A stretch of DNA of 64,000 nt, taken from positions 62,868,001 through 62,932,000 of the forward strand of contig OZ024747.1 of assembly GCA_964016885.1 (NCBI GenBank). Direction: 5' to 3'. Shown here in pieces: positions 8,330-63,267 of the stretch. The translations under genes were made by a program, and so were the position numbers. This stretch comes from Eledone cirrhosa. Its lineage: Eukaryota. Positions within the stretch are counted from its first letter, which is position 1; each line of letters opens with the position of its first letter. The notes under the pieces are model-generated. The model had not been told where the DNA came from. It did no database searches and saw nothing but the letters and a program-made list of their open reading frames with translations.

Positions 8330-8442
<113 letters not shown>

Positions 8443-8500
8443 ACTGGAAGGTAATATCCATAGTGGTAGAGCACTCAGTCCATGGGACAACAGTTAGTTC

Positions 8501-8552
8501 ACCATACCGAGAACAATTGTTTCACCTTAGCGGATCCTCAGCTCATAATGGT
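8501..8552 (-). ncRNA. Type I hammerhead ribozyme (left arm)
   Basis: Minus strand: accattatgag CTGAGGA tcc gctaa ggt GAA acaattgt t ctcggtatggt. Confidence 0.8.
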
Positions 8553-8958
8553 CATGGTTATACGGAATAGGAAGGACAACCATATGAACGCGCATGTGCA
8601 GAAACGGTCACTTCACCCAAGCAGTACGGTGTAAGGGAGATTACTGCGAAAGTCCGAAAAGTAGTTCGAGTTGATAAGAAAATCAGGAAGTTGTTATTCA
8701 ATCCGGAGCTTTGTAGTTATGTAAGAGGTGTTTCTAGACATGTGGACAATGTGTGAAGATTTCATATCTTGAGTTTAGGCAATCGCTATTGCGTTTGAAT
8801 AACAACAACATCCTAATTTTCTTATCAATTCGAACTACTTTTCGAACTTTTGCAGTTATCTTACACCTTTCACCCATGGTTTTGTATTGCTTCGGTGAAG
8901 TGACCGTTTCTGCACATGCACGTTCATACAGTTGTCCTTCCTATTCCATATAACCATG

Positions 8959-9010
8959 ACCATTACGAGCTGAGGATCCGCTAAGGTGAAACAATTGTTC
9001 TCGGTATGGT
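8959..9010 (+). ncRNA. Type I hammerhead ribozyme (right arm)
   Basis: Stem I accat-ta-cgag/ctcg-gt-atggt, core CTGAGGA 8970-8976, short stem II, GAAA 8988-8991, palindromic stem III acaattgt, predicted cleavage after GUU at 8999. Confidence 0.82.
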
Positions 9011-9035
9011 GAACTAACTGTTGTATTACCACTTC

Positions 9036-9121
<86 letters not shown>

Positions 9122-26734: not shown

Positions 26735-27071
26735 GGAGGCACATGGCTTAGTGGTTAGAGCATTGGTCTTGCAATCGAAAGGTTGTGAGTTCAATTCTCA
26801 GACTGGGTGGTGTGTTGTTTCCTTGAGCAAGACACTTTATTTCACATTGCTCCAGTTTACTCAGCTGTAGAAATGAGATGATAGGGACTGGGGTCCATAT
26901 CATTCCACTGCAAAGTGGACGTGTAGGTGCCACGGCAAAAAAGCACCCAGTACTCACTGTAAATGAGGTTGGTGTTAGGAAGGGCATCCAGCTGTAGAAA
27001 TCAAGCCAGAATCAGTTCCCACCCTTGCAAGCAGGGAAAAAGCAGACGTAAAATGAAATGAAATGAATGAT
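26735..27071 (+). mobile_element. Family A SINE, full length
   Basis: Near-identical to 246-587. Confidence 0.92.
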
Positions 27072-40699: not shown

Positions 40700-41400
40700 T
40701 TATAACAACCAGTTTGCTCTATGTAGTTCAGATCTATTATTGGTGTTTGTCATATGCCTGTTTATAAGAAGAGCTTTTTTAATTCATAACCTCCTCACAT
40801 TCCTCTCTGTGGCCTCTATGATGGCCTCAATATCTCAGGTGTGGCATTTCTCTAGGTGTTTGTTGACAGAGGAAGCACTCATGGTCATGTGTTCTTTGAT
40901 CCTTATGTGTAGTTTCTGGACAATGTTTCCAGTGTATGAATTATTACAGTTTCTGTAGGCGACTTTATAATCCCTATACAATCTCATATACATTTCCACA
41001 TTATTGATGGGACAGTTAGAAAGTGTGTATATATTATTGGTGCGTGTGGGTCAGGATTTGGAGAGTAGTTTCAAAAAAGGTCTTGAGTTTGCCTGTTGTA
41101 TGTTCAAACCCTCCCTACATATAGCTTGGCAGCAGCAATGGTTCTCTCATTAAAAGGTAGTATCTTTAGATAGTATATGTTATCTCTAGTGGTGTGTATT
41201 TTCCTCAGCAATGTTTTGGTGTCCTGGTGTTTGGTGAGAGAAGTTGGGAAACCATTTTCGGTGAGTACTCTTTGGAAATCTTTTGTGCTGGTGTATCTGT
41301 TTCTACTCTTGCTGCATCTGTTGTATATCTGGAAGTGATCCTCAGCATCCAAGATGTGGGAAGGAGTGAAAGAGTCACAATTAATACTTTCCAAGGTTTC
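40700..41400 (-). pseudogene. Decayed Penelope-like element, RT thumb to GIY-YIG region
   Basis: Minus strand RVLTENGFP (L..NGYP motif), TLSNCPINN, then RNCNNSYTGNIVQKLHIRIKEHM (C..C..YIG.T...L..R..EH motif). Confidence 0.8.
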
Positions 41401-42119
41401 AGAAAAGATGAAGAATTTTGAGAATTTACTAAAATTTTTATTTCATTATTAAAATAGTAATGTAACATATGCATCTTATATAAAATTACTTTGGAAGATT
41501 CTAATTTAAAATGGGTGGTTTGTTTCATAGAAGCAAAGCTGGTTTTAGCCAGATTTGTATCACAAGGGTTAATGCAAAATTTCAAAATAGCTGAAAAAGA
41601 TATTAAATATATCTTCTTCAAAGACATGAATGGTTTGTAAGTGTATTATGATAAAAGAAAAAAACTAAACATGACTTTATATTAAAATATGCAGCATCAT
41701 GGGAACATATTTTGAAATATGTAAATTTGTTTCCATGATCCTGGAGCAGAGTAGCTCAATGAATATATTTCAAAACAACTTGATATTTTTTCATAATAAT
41801 ATAGATATGGTAAGCTATGCAAAAACTATTTTAATGTTTTGTTTTTTAGTTTAGGCTCTGTAGTAGTGACTTTCTCCTGGGCACAGTGCTACCAAGACTA
41901 TTTTAATGTAATGGGTTCTATTCTTTGTAAAATTGCAATGTAACATTTTAGGGAGGCTTGACTGTCCTTTCTAGCAGATCAATAAACTCACCTATCTATC
42001 CACCCACACATCTATCTCTCTATCTTTCTATCTGGCCACCTGTATATCCTTCCATACACGCATCTCTCCATTCAGCTATCCATTTATCCACCCATTCACC
42101 TATTCATCTATCAAACTCA

Positions 42120-48006: not shown

Positions 48007-51000
48007 TCATCATCATCATCATCATCATTTTACGTCCGCTTTTCCCTGCTTGCAAGGGTGGGACGGGTCTTATTCAGCACAGCATCTCTCCACTCGTCAC
48101 GGTCCCTCGTCATCTCCACCGTGAGCTTCAATGATCTGAGGTCTGTTCTCACCACCTCCGCCCATGTTTTTCGTGGTCTACCTCTACCACGTCTTCCTTC
48201 AACTGGCATTTCCTGGCACTTCTTCACCCATCGGTCATCCTCCATGCGCATCACATGTCCATACCACCTCAGTCTCCTCTCCCGTACACTACATTCTATC
48301 CCTCTCAGACACAGTTTCTCTCTCAACACATTTATGCTGGGTCGTTCACGCACATTTACACTGCACATCCAACGGAGCATGCTTGCCTCATTTCTCTCCA
48401 GCCGTCGCATATCTTCTGCGGTAGCTGCCCATGTCTCACTACCATGCAGCATCGCGCTCCTCACACAGGCATCATACAACCGGCCTTTCGTACGCAGGGA
48501 GAAACCCTTCTTCGTCAACAGAGGAAGCAGCTCCCTAAACTTCTTCCAACCCGTCCTTATTCTAGATACTATGGCCTCGGAACACCCTCCTCCCATGCTA
48601 ATCTGATCTCCTAGGTACCGGAAGCTATCCACCACTTCTATAGCGCCCTCTCGCATTTGAAAAATGTGTCTATCAGTGCGACTTCTACTGTCTAATTTCC
48701 CTGTACATCTACTGCATACATATTTCTCCCTACCTGTTAGTTTGCCTGCTATCCCGCTACATCTCTTGTGTACCCAGGACCTACATTGTGTGCATTTTAT
48801 AGAATTTATGCCAGTTCCTTTTCTGCATATCGAACATGGCCATTTCCCTGACGGAATCAGGGTTTTGTCCTCTTTTCTACTCATCAACACTTTTGTCTTA
48901 GCTAGATTTACTCTCAGTCCTCTTGCTTCCAACTGCTGTTTCCATAGCCGGAATTTATTCTCTAGCTCCTCTACTGATTCTGCCATAAGAGCCAGATCGT
49001 CAGCATAGAGAAGTTCCCATGGACAGCCAGTCTTAAACTCCTCTGTTATGGCTTGGAGGACTATAATGAACAAGAGCGGGCTGAGGACCGAACCCTGATG
49101 TACTCCTACTTGTATCTGGAATTCCTCACTAAACTCCATTCCTACCCTGACTTTACTGAGAGTACCTCTGTACAAAGTTTGCACTGTCCTTACAAGCCAT
49201 TCCTCAACACCCAGCTTCCTTAGGGACCACCAGATGACAGATCGGGGTACCCTATCAAAGGCCTTCTCTAGGTCAACAAAGGCTAAGTATAGTGGCTTAT
49301 TCTTCTCTAAGAACCTCTCTTGCATTTGTCTCACCAAGAAGAGGGCATCTGTTGTACTCTTCCCAGGCACAAAACCAAACTGCATCTCATCTAGTTTGAC
49401 CCTTTCTCTAATTAGTTGTGCTAAAATCCTTTCTGCCACTTTCATAACCTGATCTATCAGTTTTATACCCCTATAATTGCTCCTCTCCAAAGCATCCCCT
49501 TTACCTTTGTAGCAATTTATGAGAATACTGCTGCACCAGTCTTTGGGTATGACACCACCATATATAGCCTGATTGATTATGCGTGCAACCAGTTTAGTGC
49601 CTACGTCCCCTGATGCCTTCAGCATCTCAGCAACTATTCCCGATGGTCCGGCCGCCTTACCATTTTTCATTTCCCTAATCGCCTCTTGGACCCTATATTC
49701 GTCAATCTCAATAGCTGGTCCCTCTGTCGGATCTACCAAGGGTAATTTCTCTCTCTCCCATTCGTTCTCCACATTCATCAGTCTCTCATAATGACATTTC
49801 CAGGCCTCCTTTTTCTGGTCATTCGTGACATTAAGTACACCGGCATCATCCCGGACACATTTATCACCAACAACATCCTGATTTGCATTGGCACACTGCC
49901 TTGCAATGTGGAACACCGCACGCCTCTGATCTTCTCGTCGCAGAACATTGGCAAACCTCCTACTCTCTGCCTCCCTGCGTGCTAAGTACACCTGACGTCT
50001 AGCTTCTCTCTTAGTGGCTGTATATTCTTCCCTACTCCCACCCTTATTCCAAGCCTTCCATGCTAGTCTTTTGTCTCTAATAGCCTTATCTACACTGCTG
50101 TTCCACCACCAGGTCACTCTCTGTCTGGGTGGAGCTCTGCTCCAGCCACAGGTTTCATCAGTAGCCTTCAGCAAGTTGTCACGTAAGAACTTCCAGTTAT
50201 TATCTATGTCATACGTCTCTAAATCGTCTTCTTTTTCGTCATATACATCTTGAAGGGCTTTCCTAAATTTGAATTTTAGTGAAAGGTCTTTTAGCTTCCA
50301 GACCTTTCTTCTCCACACCTTCCTATATGTCTCATTCCATCTCTTGCTTACTGAGATATCACTAACAACTAACCTATGCTGTGGGGTACATTCTTCCCCA
50401 GGGTATGCCTTGGTATTAGACACTATCTGCCTGTCCCGCTGCCTAACTAGCAGGAAGTCAATCTGGCTTATGTGCTCACCAGATTTGTAGGTTATTAGGT
50501 GATTGGCAGGTTTCTGGAAGTTTGTGTTGCAAATAGTCAATGTACTTGCATCACAAAATTCAAGAAGTCTCACTCCTTCTTCATTTCTTGAACCGTAACC
50601 GTGCCCACCATGTACCCCAGTGTAACCATCCTGGAGCTGTCCAACATGACCATTGAAGTCTCCTGCTAGCATAACGATGTCTCCGTCCTCTGTCATTGTG
50701 GTTGTTTGCAAAAGTTGCTCATAAAAGCAGTCTTTCTCATCTTTGCCTAGGCCTGCTTGGGGAGCATAGACCGAGATGATTGTCAGTAGTCTCCTACCTA
50801 CAACTAATCTAAGCTTAATTATTCGATTACTAACTCGAACAACCTCTATTGTCTTATTGATCCATTTCTCAGCCAGGAAAATGCCTACTCCCCCTAACCC
50901 ATCATCCTTACCTACCCAGAATAGCTTATAGCTAAGACGCTTGCCTACGACTAGTCTCGCAGAGGCACCCCTCCATCTCACCTCTTGCACGCAGCACACA

Positions 51001-51287
51001 TCCACCTGCCTTCTCTCCAGCATCTCCGCTATTTCAGCAGATCTACCTCTGAGAGTGCCAACATTAAGTGTTGCAACTCTGAGATGCGACGTCTTCATAT
51101 TTTTCTATGCTGTTTTGTTGCTGTGCTGATAAGCTTTTTGGCATTGATACACTGGTTGGATGCCCTTCCTAACACCAGCGCCACTTTACAGCATGGACTG
51201 GGTGCTTTTATTTGTGCCACCAACACTAGAGAGGATGTCTTACTAGACTCAAGGGCCCTCTCTACCCCTCCATTTTACAGCATGGTC

Positions 51288-52718: not shown

Positions 52719-54401
52719 CTGGATCAATCTAAGGCGTTCGATAGGGTCGACCATGGTTACCTGGATGCGGTGCTAGCGGCGGCAGGCTTCGGACCCGTTT
52801 TCAGGGGCTGGATCACTGCTATGCACAGCAGCCGCATCTGCTCTAGGGTCAAGGTGAACGGCTACCTCTCGGAGCCGTTCAAAATCGCGCGGTCCATCCG
52901 ACAAGGGTGCCCTCTCTCCTCCCTTCTGTATGTGTTGACTCTCGAGCCACTACTGCGGAAGTTGGAGTTGTTGCAGGGCATCCCTTTGGAACCGGGATTG
53001 CGGAAAGCGGTGTCGGCCTACGCCGATGACGTGACAGTAATGGTGTCGACGGCCTCCGAAATCGAGGCGGTCGGCACCTTACTGGAGGAGTACGAAAAGT
53101 TCACAGGGGCTAAGCTGAACCGGGACAAGTCGATCGGTTTGCAACTCGGCACGTGGAGGGGCAGACCGATGCCCTCCGATAGCGTCGTCGGACGCTGGAC
53201 GGAGGGCCCGGTGAAGTTGCTCGGGGTCTGGTTCGGACCGGACCTCCAGGTGGAGAAAAACTGGGCGGAGGTTACGAACAGGGTGTTTGCACTGACCCAG
53301 AAGTGGGCCAGTTGCAAACTATCCCTGAAAGGTCGGGCGGAGGTGGCGAACACCTACATAGCGTCCGTCATCTACTACCGCCTGACCGTAGTGCCCTGCC
53401 CAAGGGAAACCCTCACCAAGATGGAGCGCGCGCTCTTCCAATTCCTTTGGAAGAGGCGGGCTCCTATGGTGAGGAGATCCATCTGCTGTCAACACCCTTC
53501 GAAAGGAGGGCTGGGGATGCCGTGGCTAATGATGCGTAAACACGCATTAAGGCTACGGCACCTCTACGTATTCCTCACCGGACAACCGGTGTGGGCCTCG
53601 TTTGTGAGACGAACCTTTCCCAGACTCGTCTCACTCACCGAGCTGCAATCCTGGGTCAAGCAAAGACCGAGAAAACTGGGCGCCTGGCACACTGAGTGTG
53701 CCCAGGCGCTCACCGCCCTCTGGCAGGCGGATCCGGTTATCAGTGGAGACTCCACCGCAACATTCTATAGAGGGCTGGTACGCAGCAGGTGCGACGACGC
53801 CCTCGGAGAAGCCCTAGACATGGAGGAGGACGAACTGGCCAGCCTGTTCGGTAGGACATTCAGCCCGGGACCTATGGACAACTTCCAGAAGTCCCTGGCC
53901 TGGCAGTGCTACCGAGGGGCTTTACCCGTTCGAGAAAGGCTCTACAGACACGGGCGCCCGGGTAGGGACCCCGCCAAAAAGATCTGTCCCAGATGCGTGT
54001 GCGACGAGGAAACCGTTGCACACGCATTAGTACACTGCTCGGGCGTAGCCGATCTGTGGGGCTATGTCGAACAACTGCTGTCAAGGGGGGGACCGATCCG
54101 GTTGACCACCGAGTCTATTGTAATGATCAAGCCGCCTCCCCCCTTCAAAGATGAAGCAGAGGCGGTGTTTCTGTGCGTAATAGCCATGGCGAAAGAGGTT
54201 GTATGGTGGACGCGTCTGAAAGGACTGAGGTCGGGCACCTTTCTCTCTGGTCAACAACTGGTCCGTTTCTTCCGATATCATTTCGGAAGAAGGATCAGGA
54301 TGGAGAGAGAGGTGCTGCACCCCAGCCGTTTCTATGAAAGATGGGTGAAAGTGGCGAGAATGGCCCGTGTGAATGGGCCTTCACTCTACATCAGACTATA
54401 G
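52719..54401 (+). CDS. Truncated ORF2: RT C-terminal half plus CCHC zinc finger (no start codon, endonuclease missing)
   Basis: In frame LDQSKAFDRVDHGYL, SIRQGCPLSSLLY, AYADDV, KLLGV, LSLKGRA, GGLGM, CPRCVCDEETVAHALVHC; no internal stops. Confidence 0.9.
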   Translation: MDQSKAFDRVDHGYLDAVLAAAGFGPVFRGWITAMHSSRICSRVKVNGYLSEPFKIARSIRQGCPLSSLLYVLTLEPLLRKLELLQGIPLEPGLRKAVSAYADDVTVMVSTASEIEAVGTLLEEYEKFTGAKLNRDKSIGLQLGTWRGRPMPSDSVVGRWTEGPVKLLGVWFGPDLQVEKNWAEVTNRVFALTQKWASCKLSLKGRAEVANTYIASVIYYRLTVVPCPRETLTKMERALFQFLWKRRAPMVRRSICCQHPSKGGLGMPWLMMRKHALRLRHLYVFLTGQPVWASFVRRTFPRLVSLTELQSWVKQRPRKLGAWHTECAQALTALWQADPVISGDSTATFYRGLVRSRCDDALGEALDMEEDELASLFGRTFSPGPMDNFQKSLAWQCYRGALPVRERLYRHGRPGRDPAKKICPRCVCDEETVAHALVHCSGVADLWGYVEQLLSRGGPIRLTTESIVMIKPPPPFKDEAEAVFLCVIAMAKEVVWWTRLKGLRSGTFLSGQQLVRFFRYHFGRRIRMEREVLHPSRFYERWVKVARMARVNGPSLYIRL

Positions 54402-61077: not shown

Positions 61078-61424
61078 TCATCATCATCATCATCATCATC
61101 ATTTTACGTCGGCTTTTCCCTGCTTGCAAGGGTGGGACGGGAACTGATACTGGCTTGATTTCTACAGCTGGATGCCCTTCCTAACACCAACCTCATTTAC
61201 AGTGAGTGCTGGGTGCTTTTTTGCCATGGCACCTCCACGACCACTTTGCAGTGGAATGATATGGACCCCAGTCCCTATCATCTCATTTCTACAGCTGAGT
61301 AAACTGGAGCAATGTGAAATAAAGTGTCTTGCTCAAGGAAACAACACATCACCCGGTCTGAGAATTGAACTCACAACCTTTCGATTGCAAGCCCAATGCT
61401 CTAACCACTAAGCCATGTGCCTCC
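61078..61424 (-). mobile_element. Family A SINE, full length, inserted in (TA)n
   Basis: Reverse complement of 246-587 with (ATG)n tail. Confidence 0.93.
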
Positions 61425-61637: not shown

Positions 61638-61668
<31 letters not shown>

Positions 61669-62094
61669 CTGTAAAAATACCGTGTTTCTTTAGAAATACG
61701 AAATTTTTATACATAGCTGAATACAGCTATGACTGAAGCTAAATCCTAATTCTATTCTATTATCTGTTGAGCCAACTTATGCAGCTTCATATGCAAATGA
61801 GATTAATCACTTCCTTTACACAGACGAGAAAACTATATATTCTCAACTGTTTTCAAGTCCAGCAGTCGCAAGTGTGGGAGGGATCATCCTGATGAGGACC
61901 ATTTAAGTCTGAAATGCATCGACGATTGTCCCCCTTGCTTCTGCTGGACACCACCAGAAGGCATTAGCCCCATTGTTTTTTGCATAGCTACGGCTTTCTA
62001 AATGTTTATCTGGAAACATACCGTGTTTCTTTAGAAATATGAAATTTCTATACATATCTGTATACAACTATGCCTGAAGCTTAATTCTAATTCT
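61669..62094 (+). mobile_element. Retrozyme-like / Penelope pLTR-like element: 341-bp monomer with ~77-85-bp terminal direct repeat and a central hammerhead
   Basis: ataccgtgtttctttagaaata..ctgaagct..ctaattct at 61677-61753 and 62018-62094; microsatellite flanks. Confidence 0.8.
61883..61926 (+). ncRNA. Minimal type I hammerhead ribozyme
   Basis: atcatc CTGATGA ggac catttaa gtct GAA atgcat c gacgat; palindromic stem III atgcat, predicted cleavage after AUC at 61920; stem I extendable by gcaag/cttgc. Confidence 0.85.
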
Positions 62095-62300
62095 CTCTCT
62101 CTCTCTCTTTATATATATCTATCTATATATTTATATATATATATAAGCAAGATGTATGGTAGGTCGTATGTGAATCGCGATGATCACGCCTGACCTACCA
62201 AATATGCGACGGTAGCTAGTTAAGCTCTATGCGTATAAGCAGAGCAGAAATATTAATGAAAAAGAACAAAGGAACTATTATGACATTATAACAAGTTTAT

Positions 62301-62347
62301 TGCCGACAGCCGTTTCGTCCGACCCCATGGTGGGACTTTTCAAGGCA
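62301..62347 (-). ncRNA. Type I hammerhead ribozyme, U3-A8 variant
   Basis: Minus strand tgcc TTGAAAA gtcc caccatggggtc ggac GAA acggctgt c ggca; GUC cleavage triplet. Confidence 0.75.
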
Positions 62348-63156
62348 TATAACAGGTGATTGTAAGTTCATTATTTACATCAACGTTTCACTCAAGATTA
62401 GCAGTTTGAAATTGTGGTATACATCAGCAGCTCCGCTTGTATATTTGGGGTCTATATTCTAAGGGGGCTCTTTTATATTAGTTGTAGGAGTTGTAAACGG
62501 GATGGGTTATAGGGAGTTAAGAGAATTTGAAAAGGGCCTAAGAGTCAGGGATTGAAGGTTAAAAATTAGAGAATTTATAATTTTCACATTTAAAGTAAAA
62601 GACTTGGGATCTCGTAGAAGCACCTTAAAAAATCCCTCAATAAGTGCATAAAGCTTATAAGCCCCAATAAACCTAACAAATCAGAAGAGATTAAGAGACT
62701 AATAAAATAAAAAAAATAAAAATATAGAGTTTCCTAAAAAAATATAAAGTTTCCTAAATAATTCCTTCAAAAGAAAAAATTTTTTCTAAGAGATCACGTT
62801 AAAAAATTTCAGAAAATTTACGAAGTTTTGATAATCCCTACTAAAGTTCTAAACTCAGAAATTAAAAATTAAAAATTAGGGAAAAGAGCTTTCAATAAGA
62901 TTTCACAGGTTAATAAAGTTAATGATTTAGGGAGTACATATTATAAATATTAAGATTTAATTTAGGATTTGAATTTTAAGAGTTCCAAACCCCGAAAGTA
63001 AAAAATTTAATGAATTTAAGATTAAGCAATCTTATATATCCATGATTAAAAATTAACGATTAAGGGGTTGAACATTAAATTTAATTTTAAAAATTAAGAA
63101 ATAAATAGTTGAGTGAAACGTTGATGTAAATAATGAACTTACAATCACCTGTTATA

Positions 63157-63203
63157 TGCCTTGAAAAGTCCCACCATATGGTCGGACGAAAAGGCTGTCG
63201 GCA
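63157..63203 (+). ncRNA. Type I hammerhead ribozyme, U3-A8 variant, with a stem III mutation
   Basis: tgcc TTGAAAA gtcc caccatatggtc ggac GAA aaggctgt c ggca. Confidence 0.65.
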
Positions 63204-63267
63204 ATAAACTTGTTATAATGTCATAATAGTTCCTTTGTTCTTTTTCATTAATATATATATATATATA

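What the first reader, a model, noticed from the sequence alone, without database searches (positions are those of the whole stretch)
61669..62094. 341-bp ~1.2-mer with a central hammerhead: footprint expected from reverse transcription of a circular RNA
Seen: terminal direct repeats 341 bp apart with the ribozyme (cleavage predicted at 61920) in the middle rather than at an end; non-coding; microsatellite flanks. Established: non-LTR retrozymes are a few hundred nt long, self-cleave from tandem transcripts, circularise, and reinsert as permuted partial multimers; palindromic stem III favours dimeric cleavage. Inference: a retrozyme-like element with a 341-nt circular RNA. A partial tandem PLE pLTR is the alternative.
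Basis: partly seen in the sequence, partly recalled or inferred. Interest (0 to 1): 0.75.

Follow-up and report, generated by a model that had tools for sequence, protein, structure and literature searches.

The report
Penelope-pasted hammerhead repeat with snRNA-type promoter
This is one decayed copy of a scattered, non-coding 341-base repeat that carries a predicted self-cutting RNA and a likely small-RNA-type promoter; its copies end at two fixed points and sit in simple repeats, which likely records pasting by a Penelope-type jumping gene, while copying from an RNA circle is possible but unproven.

Summary
Observation confirmed: 85-nt direct repeats 341 bp apart (88%), a minimal type I hammerhead cutting after 61920 (predicted), microsatellite flanks. 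The interpretation needs correcting. The family has thousands of candidate loci, and its copies are not randomly permuted: 50 of 57 copies picked by internal sequence end at two fixed 3' sites about 40 nt apart, while 5' ends scatter. 21 of 116 loci carry a head-to-head inverted second copy; 90 of 118 3' ends run into microsatellites; almost no target duplications. That is the Penelope-like (PLE) insertion signature, so the central ribozyme follows from fixed internal priming and does not diagnose a circle. The unit also holds the host's U6/U1 promoter motifs at near-matching spacing, kept in sister families. A circle stays plausible: templates were uncut at the ribozyme, repeats within a copy share rare variants, and rare 2-mers restore the upstream promoter. 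No RNA could be checked and no autonomous partner was found. This copy has one ribozyme and cannot release a circle. It is a new member of a known kind (non-LTR retrozyme, likely PLE-mobilised); the scan noted the same picture before on other families and genomes.

The parts
61669..62094 (+). whole insertion: 1.25 units of a 341-bp non-coding repeat (subfamily A), 5'-truncated, fixed long 3' end
   Evidence: 5.4% from the subfamily consensus; start ambiguous by 2 nt (61667-61669)
61669..61753 (+). 5' copy of the terminal direct repeat (unit phase 1-85)
61790..61801 (+). TATGCAAATGAG, octamer-containing motif found at -77 to -79 of this genome's U6 genes
   Evidence: kept in sister family 3; only match of the pattern in the window
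61805..61810 (+). AATCAC, like the AATCAG/AGTCAG at -58 to -60 of this genome's U1 genes (likely PSE core)
61834..61840 (+). TATA box; by U1/U6 spacing (-30) predicts +1 at about 61864
   Evidence: start site inferred, not mapped
61860..61950 (+). type I hammerhead with long stem I; core 61889-61920; predicted cut after C61920; stem III is 2 bp with palindromic AUGCAU
61976..61981 (+). T6 run (would stop Pol III; shortened in subfamily B)
61984..62024 (+). hairpin module shared with the 314-bp and 321-bp sister families; likely part of the RT recognition region
   Evidence: function inferred
62010..62094 (+). 3' copy of the direct repeat; holds both family 3' end sites, the short one at about 62054-62059 and the long one at 62094 (the optional ~40-nt PLE 'tail' lies between)
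61639..61668 (.). (TA)n then CACAC: left target flank
62095..62145 (.). (CT)n/(TA)n: right target flank

Best explanation
This is a dispersed, non-coding hammerhead repeat of the non-LTR retrozyme type whose copies have two fixed 3' ends, variable 5' ends and microsatellite targets, and which is likely pasted in trans by the reverse transcriptase-endonuclease of a Penelope-like element (probably Neptune clade). Shown: family, end pattern, inverted pairs, hammerhead covariation, promoter-like motifs. Inferred: a source copy of about two units is transcribed from an snRNA-type promoter inside the unit (likely Pol II); the PLE protein cuts (TA)n/(CT)n/(CA)n DNA, starts cDNA at one of two internal AT-rich sites 136 or ~176 nt past the ribozyme cut site, often from both DNA ends, and mostly stops early. 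The template is intact at the ribozyme site: an uncut linear precursor or a re-ligated 341-nt circle. Because the promoter lies upstream of the start site, a linear transcript of a 2-mer cannot give back a 2-mer; new source copies need a circle, a homologous template switch or read-through. I put the circle as the route at about 0.4. This copy has one promoter and one ribozyme and would be a dead end.
For: 3' ends: 50 of 57 copies picked by internal sequence end at phase 36-61 (17) or 77-102 (33); about 15-21% expected. Sister family: 37 of 48 segments end at exactly two positions 32 nt apart (the long end was part of the query). 5' ends occur in 32 of 35 ten-nt bins. Head-to-head inverted partner at 21 of 116 loci, 16 of 21 partners ending at the same 3' sites. 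Microsatellite at 90 of 118 3' ends against 13.6% background; 2 of 118 possible 6-nt duplications. These match the PLE features in PMC8557442 and the two internal RT starts and both-strand extension in PMC11167929. Open RT+GIY-YIG frames with the CxxxxCxxC linker exist in the genome. 27 of 29 copies from the one search that did not require the cut site read through it. Rare non-CpG variants shared within a copy: tandem repeats 30/6277 vs 103/153197 sites between copies; inverted arms 12/2873 vs 13/25574; 18 of 18 arm pairs same subfamily. Promoter motifs at -74/-59/-30 vs U6 -77..-79/-30 and U1 -58..-60/-30, kept in sister families.
Against: No autonomous PLE sharing this terminal sequence among 120 GIY-YIG loci (of 150 scored, 10,596 candidates); the 3 hits look like separate insertions, so the mobilising enzyme is inferred from footprints only. 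The 3' ends here resemble the target, unlike the non-homologous starts of the anole PLE. No copy longer than 2.0 units among 118. 7 of 10 of the longest copies stop at phase 171-193 (p about 0.005-0.02), which suggests a linear length ceiling, but 3-25 nt upstream of the predicted +1, so it fits neither a start site nor a circle cleanly. Shared variants can also come from homogenised source loci or later gene conversion. All loci are best matches to the query, not a random sample. The U6 motif rests on three promoter types.
Confidence: 0.75

Rival explanations
1. One reading: reverse transcription of a 341-nt circle from arbitrary points gives randomly permuted partial multimers, and the central ribozyme is the footprint.
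For: 5' ends vary; templates intact at the cut site; repeats in a copy share rare variants; circular monomer folds well (z -4.0 and -5.1); circles shown for coral, mussel and axolotl retrozymes (PMC7229834).
Against: 3' ends fixed at two sites, 50 of 57; nothing above 2.0 units in 118 copies. Random permutation is refuted; only the circle-as-template part survives and is folded into the best explanation.
Confidence: 0.08
2. Solo remnants of an autonomous PLE: 5'-truncated pseudo-LTR pieces of a coding element, with no life cycle of their own.
For: All PLE end signatures; retrozymes relate to pLTRs in Xenopus (bioRxiv 10.64898/2026.07.22.740005).
Against: The 3' site runs directly on into the next unit in every copy longer than one unit, up to 2.0 units, with no ORF between; no PLE protein match to the unit (best E 0.25); no copy joined to a PLE ORF in the family loci scanned (three loci have unrelated PLE pieces nearby); subfamilies with their own compensatory changes.
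Confidence: 0.07
3. A SINE-like element with its own snRNA-type promoter that is copied by a LINE (the window holds an open RTE frame), with microsatellite tails made by slippage.
For: Fixed 3' ends and 5' truncation also fit LINE-type priming; an intact 1024-aa RTE-type frame lies at 48030-51104.
Against: Two alternative 3' ends 32-40 nt apart, inverted partners with their own 3' ends and the lack of duplications are PLE features; four different microsatellite types follow the same end, so they are targets, not tails.
Confidence: 0.06
4. Satellite-like DNA spread by DNA-level recombination between microsatellites, without an RNA step.
For: Junction microhomology with (TA)n is frequent.
Against: Polar end pattern, head-to-head pairs, RNA-level covariation, copies on most large contigs as single short insertions.
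Confidence: 0.04

Closest known systems
Metazoan non-LTR retrozymes (Cervera and de la Pena 2020, PMC7229834; seen: passages and the Discussion)
   Same: 150-450 bp non-coding unit with a type I hammerhead, two length variants differing by a 20-nt indel (as in the coral family), short stem III as in axolotl; PLEs proposed there as the mobilising partner.
   Different: Here mostly dispersed 0.5-2.0-mers, not long tandems; insertion ends mapped and PLE-like; circular RNA and cleavage not shown here.
Animal retrozymes as non-autonomous PLEs (Li, Clavereau, Pollet, bioRxiv 10.64898/2026.07.22.740005; seen: parts 1-3 of 5, abstract to discussion; supplements not seen)
   Same: Same overall conclusion; monomeric derivatives are common.
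   Different: That work argues from co-occurrence and pLTR homology in vertebrates; its text has no hits for 'promoter', 'tail', 'target-primed' or 'mollus'. Here the evidence is insertion footprints, and pLTR homology was not found.
EN+ Penelope-like elements, Neptune clade; anole PAc mechanism (PMC8557442 passages; PMC11167929 parts 1-2 of 4)
   Same: 5' truncation, partial tandems, inverted 5' copy, optional 30-40 bp tail between two RT starts, microsatellite bias, both strands extended, uncut RNA used as template.
   Different: No ORF; 3' sites resemble the target; promoter motifs are snRNA-like, not those seen downstream of the autonomous ORFs sampled.
Newt satellite 2 with an snRNA-type Pol II promoter (Coats et al. 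1994, seen only as cited in PMC2220036; paper not held)
   Same: About 330-bp hammerhead repeat with an internal snRNA-type promoter.
   Different: Different phylum, no sequence comparison made; here the motifs mix this genome's U6 and U1 elements and include a TATA box.

Membership tests
non-LTR retrozyme | type I hammerhead in the unit | tested here: met
   core positions conserved in 83-92 of 92-95 copies, compensatory pairs in stems I and II
non-LTR retrozyme | non-coding unit of 150-450 bp | tested here: met
   341 and 321 nt; longest open frame 64 codons
non-LTR retrozyme | tandem copies with two ribozymes (Li et al. criterion for an active element) | tested here: inconclusive
   this copy has one (a monomer derivative); a minority of family copies span two ribozyme sites, up to 2.0 units; their intactness was not scored one by one
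non-LTR retrozyme | self-cleavage and circular RNA in vivo | not testable with these tools
   no RNA holder listed
non-autonomous PLE-mobilised element | fixed 3' end with optional 30-40 nt tail | tested here: met
   50 of 57; sister family 37 of 48 segments
non-autonomous PLE-mobilised element | 5' truncation, partial tandems, inverted 5' copies | tested here: met
   21 of 116 loci with inverted partner
non-autonomous PLE-mobilised element | microsatellite targets, no clear target-site duplication | tested here: met
   90 of 118 vs 13.6%; 2 of 118 six-base candidates
non-autonomous PLE-mobilised element | terminal homology to an autonomous PLE | tested here: inconclusive
   none among 120 GIY-YIG loci, a small sample of 10,596 candidates; descent from a pLTR is therefore not claimed
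autonomous PLE | RT + GIY-YIG open frame | tested here: not met
snRNA-type promoter | host U6/U1 upstream motifs at matching spacing | tested here: met
   motif in 93 of 200,000 simulated units; U6 motif 3-5 nt closer to TATA than in U6 genes
snRNA-type promoter | drives transcription from the predicted start | not testable with these tools
   no RNA; 5' ends of long copies lie 3-25 nt upstream of the predicted +1

The most novel reading that the evidence does not exclude
The circle is an obligatory step: the element's promoter lies upstream of its start site, so only double self-cleavage, ligation to a 341-nt circle and more-than-once-round copying by a Neptune PLE enzyme, primed from both ends of one DNA break on one RNA, can rebuild a promoter-bearing 2-mer. 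That would give the hammerhead of PLE-type elements a function (promoter regeneration) and name the enzyme class that spreads animal retrozymes.
Probability: 0.35. Interest if true: 0.65.

Novelty: new member of a known kind. Interest (0 to 1): 0.4.

Why it matters
How animal retrozymes are copied into genomes, and what the hammerhead does for PLE-type elements, are stated as open in the papers read. This family gives exact predicted RT start sites, a target preference, a candidate promoter and candidate enzymes in one genome, so the circle-versus-linear question becomes a direct assay. The copy in the window is itself an ordinary, decayed insertion, the family is about 5-6% diverged, and younger families with the same picture were noted earlier in this scan, which limits the interest.

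Tried and rejected
Rfam did not detect this hammerhead. Search for an autonomous partner: a PLE remnant query (20 loci), GIY-YIG loci (120 of 150 scored hits examined) and two related segments followed up led only to two more non-coding sister families. A Pfam accession recalled for the PLE thumb domain is not in the library. Pile-up of 5' ends at phase 91-98 as proof of one full round of a circle: rejected, these junctions share ATTAT/TA microhomology with the target. Pile-up at 171-193 as a mapped start site: only suggestive, offset from the predicted +1 and not significant in single-pass copies (3 of 21 at 187-189); a hairpin forming in the new cDNA is an untested alternative. Invariance of phase 87-204 between subfamilies was not used: subfamily B copies were selected on that region. 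L237 looked like a 3-mer but is two insertions. 11 of the top U6 hits beyond the first 12 loci were not fetched as promoters; the 14 fetched lack the motif and look like retrocopies. Coats et al. 1994 could not be read. Literature searches for a cephalopod retrozyme or for PLE footprints of retrozymes found none in the held library; Repbase/Dfam were not searchable, so the family may be catalogued there.

Full report
Observation. The 426 bases 61669-62094 begin and end with an 85-nt repeat at 341-nt spacing, 88% identical. Rfam misses it. There is no coding frame above 64 codons. Flanks are (TA)n and (CT)n/(TA)n. Below, 'phase' is the position in the 341-nt unit, phase 1 = 61669; the cut site is phase 252.

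A family. The window lies in a 3.0-Gb animal genome; size and repeat landscape suggest an octopod, which is my inference and was not tested. The element had 3,521 first-look candidates, sub-regions 1,181-2,632; these are not copy numbers. I mapped 150 fetched loci from five searches, all best matches to their query. After removing repeats of the same copy and six rows (L016, L020, L081, L226 near-duplicates; L026 misaligned across an inverted pair; L237 two insertions), 118 copies at 116 loci remained. Two subfamilies exist: A, 341 nt, 75 copies, 6.1% from consensus; B, 321 nt, 22 copies, 4.7%; this copy is A, 5.4% (on the first four searches).

The ribozyme is real at family level. Core positions are kept in 83-92 of 92-95 copies; pairs 228:242, 229:241, 230:240 (stem II) and 216:257 (stem I) switch between G-C and A-U forms; the cut triplet is AUC in A and AUA in B. 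On 35 aligned copies, 95.2% of cells pair and 40 cells change on both sides against 16.0 shuffled (relatedness inflates this). A 1-2 bp palindromic stem III is the dimer-dependent type (PMC4209133 passages). This copy has a G-U at the core-closing pair of stem II and an A.C mismatch in stem I.

To avoid selecting on ends I used the 60 loci found with internal queries, minus the focal copy twice and one duplicate. Of 57, 17 end at phase 36-61 and 33 at 77-102; 7 end elsewhere. The windows are wide because alignments run on into (TA)n; they were set from the first search. 15% is expected under uniform ends, about 21% allowing for the query region. 5' ends fall in 32 of 35 bins. So ends are polar: fixed 3', variable 5'. 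The ribozyme is central because copying starts 136 or about 176 nt downstream of the cut site.

PLE signature. Two 3' ends about 40 nt apart match the optional 30-40 bp tail of PLEs (PMC8557442 passages), shown in the anole element to be the stretch between two internal RT starts (PMC11167929). 21 of 116 loci have an inverted partner joined at the 5' end, and 16 of the 21 partners end at the same two sites, as expected if both strands of a break are extended (PMC11167929). 90 of 118 3' ends enter a dinucleotide repeat against 13.6% of random flank windows, and only 2 of 118 show a possible 6-nt duplication. The genome holds open RT+GIY-YIG frames with the CxxxxCxxC linker of Neptune elements (938 and 1096 aa; clade assigned from that motif, no tree). 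Against: none of 120 GIY-YIG loci carries this terminal sequence as its own end, and the 3' sites here resemble the target, unlike the anole case.

Sister families. A 314-bp unit (alignment score 93 vs 38+/-6 shuffled) and a 321-bp unit (167 vs 41+/-6) are colinear with this one, also non-coding in the loci seen, each with a hammerhead-like core. In the 314-bp family 37 of 48 segments end at exactly two positions 32 nt apart.

A promoter inside the unit. TATGCAAATGAG (61790-801) matches TATGCWAATKAG at -77 to -79 of three U6 promoter types of this genome; AATCAC (61805-10) and TATA (61834-40) sit 29 nt apart like AATCAG (-58/-59) and TATA (-30) of U1 genes. The 12-mer arose in 93 of 200,000 simulated units. 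Family 3 keeps all three motifs amid diverged sequence, family 2 keeps the AATCAG core. Predicted +1 is phase 196 (61864), in the same AGC|A context as U1. A T6 run at 61976-81 argues against Pol III read-through. Function is untested. An snRNA-type promoter is reported for newt satellite 2 (cited in PMC2220036).

Circle or line. Templates were intact at the cut site: 27 of 29 copies from the one search not requiring it read through; the 129 of 130 is mostly selected. Repeats within a copy share rare non-CpG variants about 7 times more than between copies (30/6277 vs 103/153197 sites, 53 copies), inverted arms about 8 times (12/2873 vs 13/25574, 18 pairs, all same subfamily) (sites are not independent). 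5' repeats are no closer to each other than to 3' repeats, so there is no fixed two-part master. This fits one RNA read more than once, but also homogenised sources or gene conversion. A linear transcript from a 2-mer source would be about 580 nt with one promoter and could not rebuild a source; three copies exceed this (L230 687, L036 683, L239 659 nt), so a circle, a template switch or read-through must occur at times. Against a circle as the usual template: nothing above 2.0 units in 118 copies, and 7 of the 10 longest stop at phase 171-193 (p 0.005-0.02), though this is upstream of the predicted +1. No RNA was available.

Mechanism, committed. Shown: family, polar ends, tail, inverted pairs, targets, covariation, motifs. 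Inferred: snRNA-type transcription of ~2-unit sources, target-primed copying by a Neptune-type PLE protein from fixed internal sites (0.75 overall); circles from double cleavage as the route that rebuilds sources (about 0.4; obligatory 0.35). This copy has one ribozyme and one promoter: it would give a short promoter-less RNA and no circle.

Known and new. It works like a non-autonomous PLE and fits the non-LTR retrozyme class (PMC7229834; bioRxiv 10.64898/2026.07.22.740005, which already proposes PLE origin and mobilisation). I found no paper in the held library mapping PLE footprints or this promoter on such a family; supplements of the preprint and Repbase were not seen. Verdict: new member of a known kind, interest 0.4.

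Noticed in passing
window 62250-63254: Inverted arms of 146 nt, 98% complementary, 713 nt apart, each with a variant hammerhead (CTTGAAAA...GAAA; Rfam Hammerhead_1 20 bits at 62299-62348 minus), (TA)n-flanked on the right, with 310-nt periodicity inside: likely another head-to-head PLE-type insertion, young.
   Followed up: partly
window 8440-9060: Inverted pair of a different hammerhead-bearing repeat (cores at 8520-8541 minus and 8970-8991 plus) between (TA)n runs; a third core at 1650-1673 minus.
   Followed up: no
window 48030-51104 (-): Open 1024-aa frame with AP endonuclease, RT and a PHD-like finger: intact RTE-type LINE.
   Followed up: partly
window 40724-41645 (-): Decayed PLE coding remnant (thumb region and GIY-YIG end; 44% to L141 protein).
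   Followed up: partly
window 52719-54401 (+): 560-aa frame of a 5'-truncated L1/Tx1-like element, by eye.
   Followed up: no
window 26742-26805 and 61358-61415: tRNA-derived SINE heads scoring just above the Rfam tRNA cut-off.
   Followed up: no
L255-L284 and L285-L314: Two sister families (314-bp, about 95% identical copies; 321-bp, about 84%) sharing the 3' module and promoter motifs; the younger 314-bp family has very sharp 3' ends and is the better test system.
   Followed up: partly
L014 and L056: The same inversion junction (phases 12 and 288) at two loci of different subfamilies, unexplained.
   Followed up: no
L163-L174; L157, L158, L160-L162: U1 genes of this genome carry a TATA-like box at about -30; several U6 array copies have their upstream motif replaced by a SINE-like piece.
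   Followed up: no
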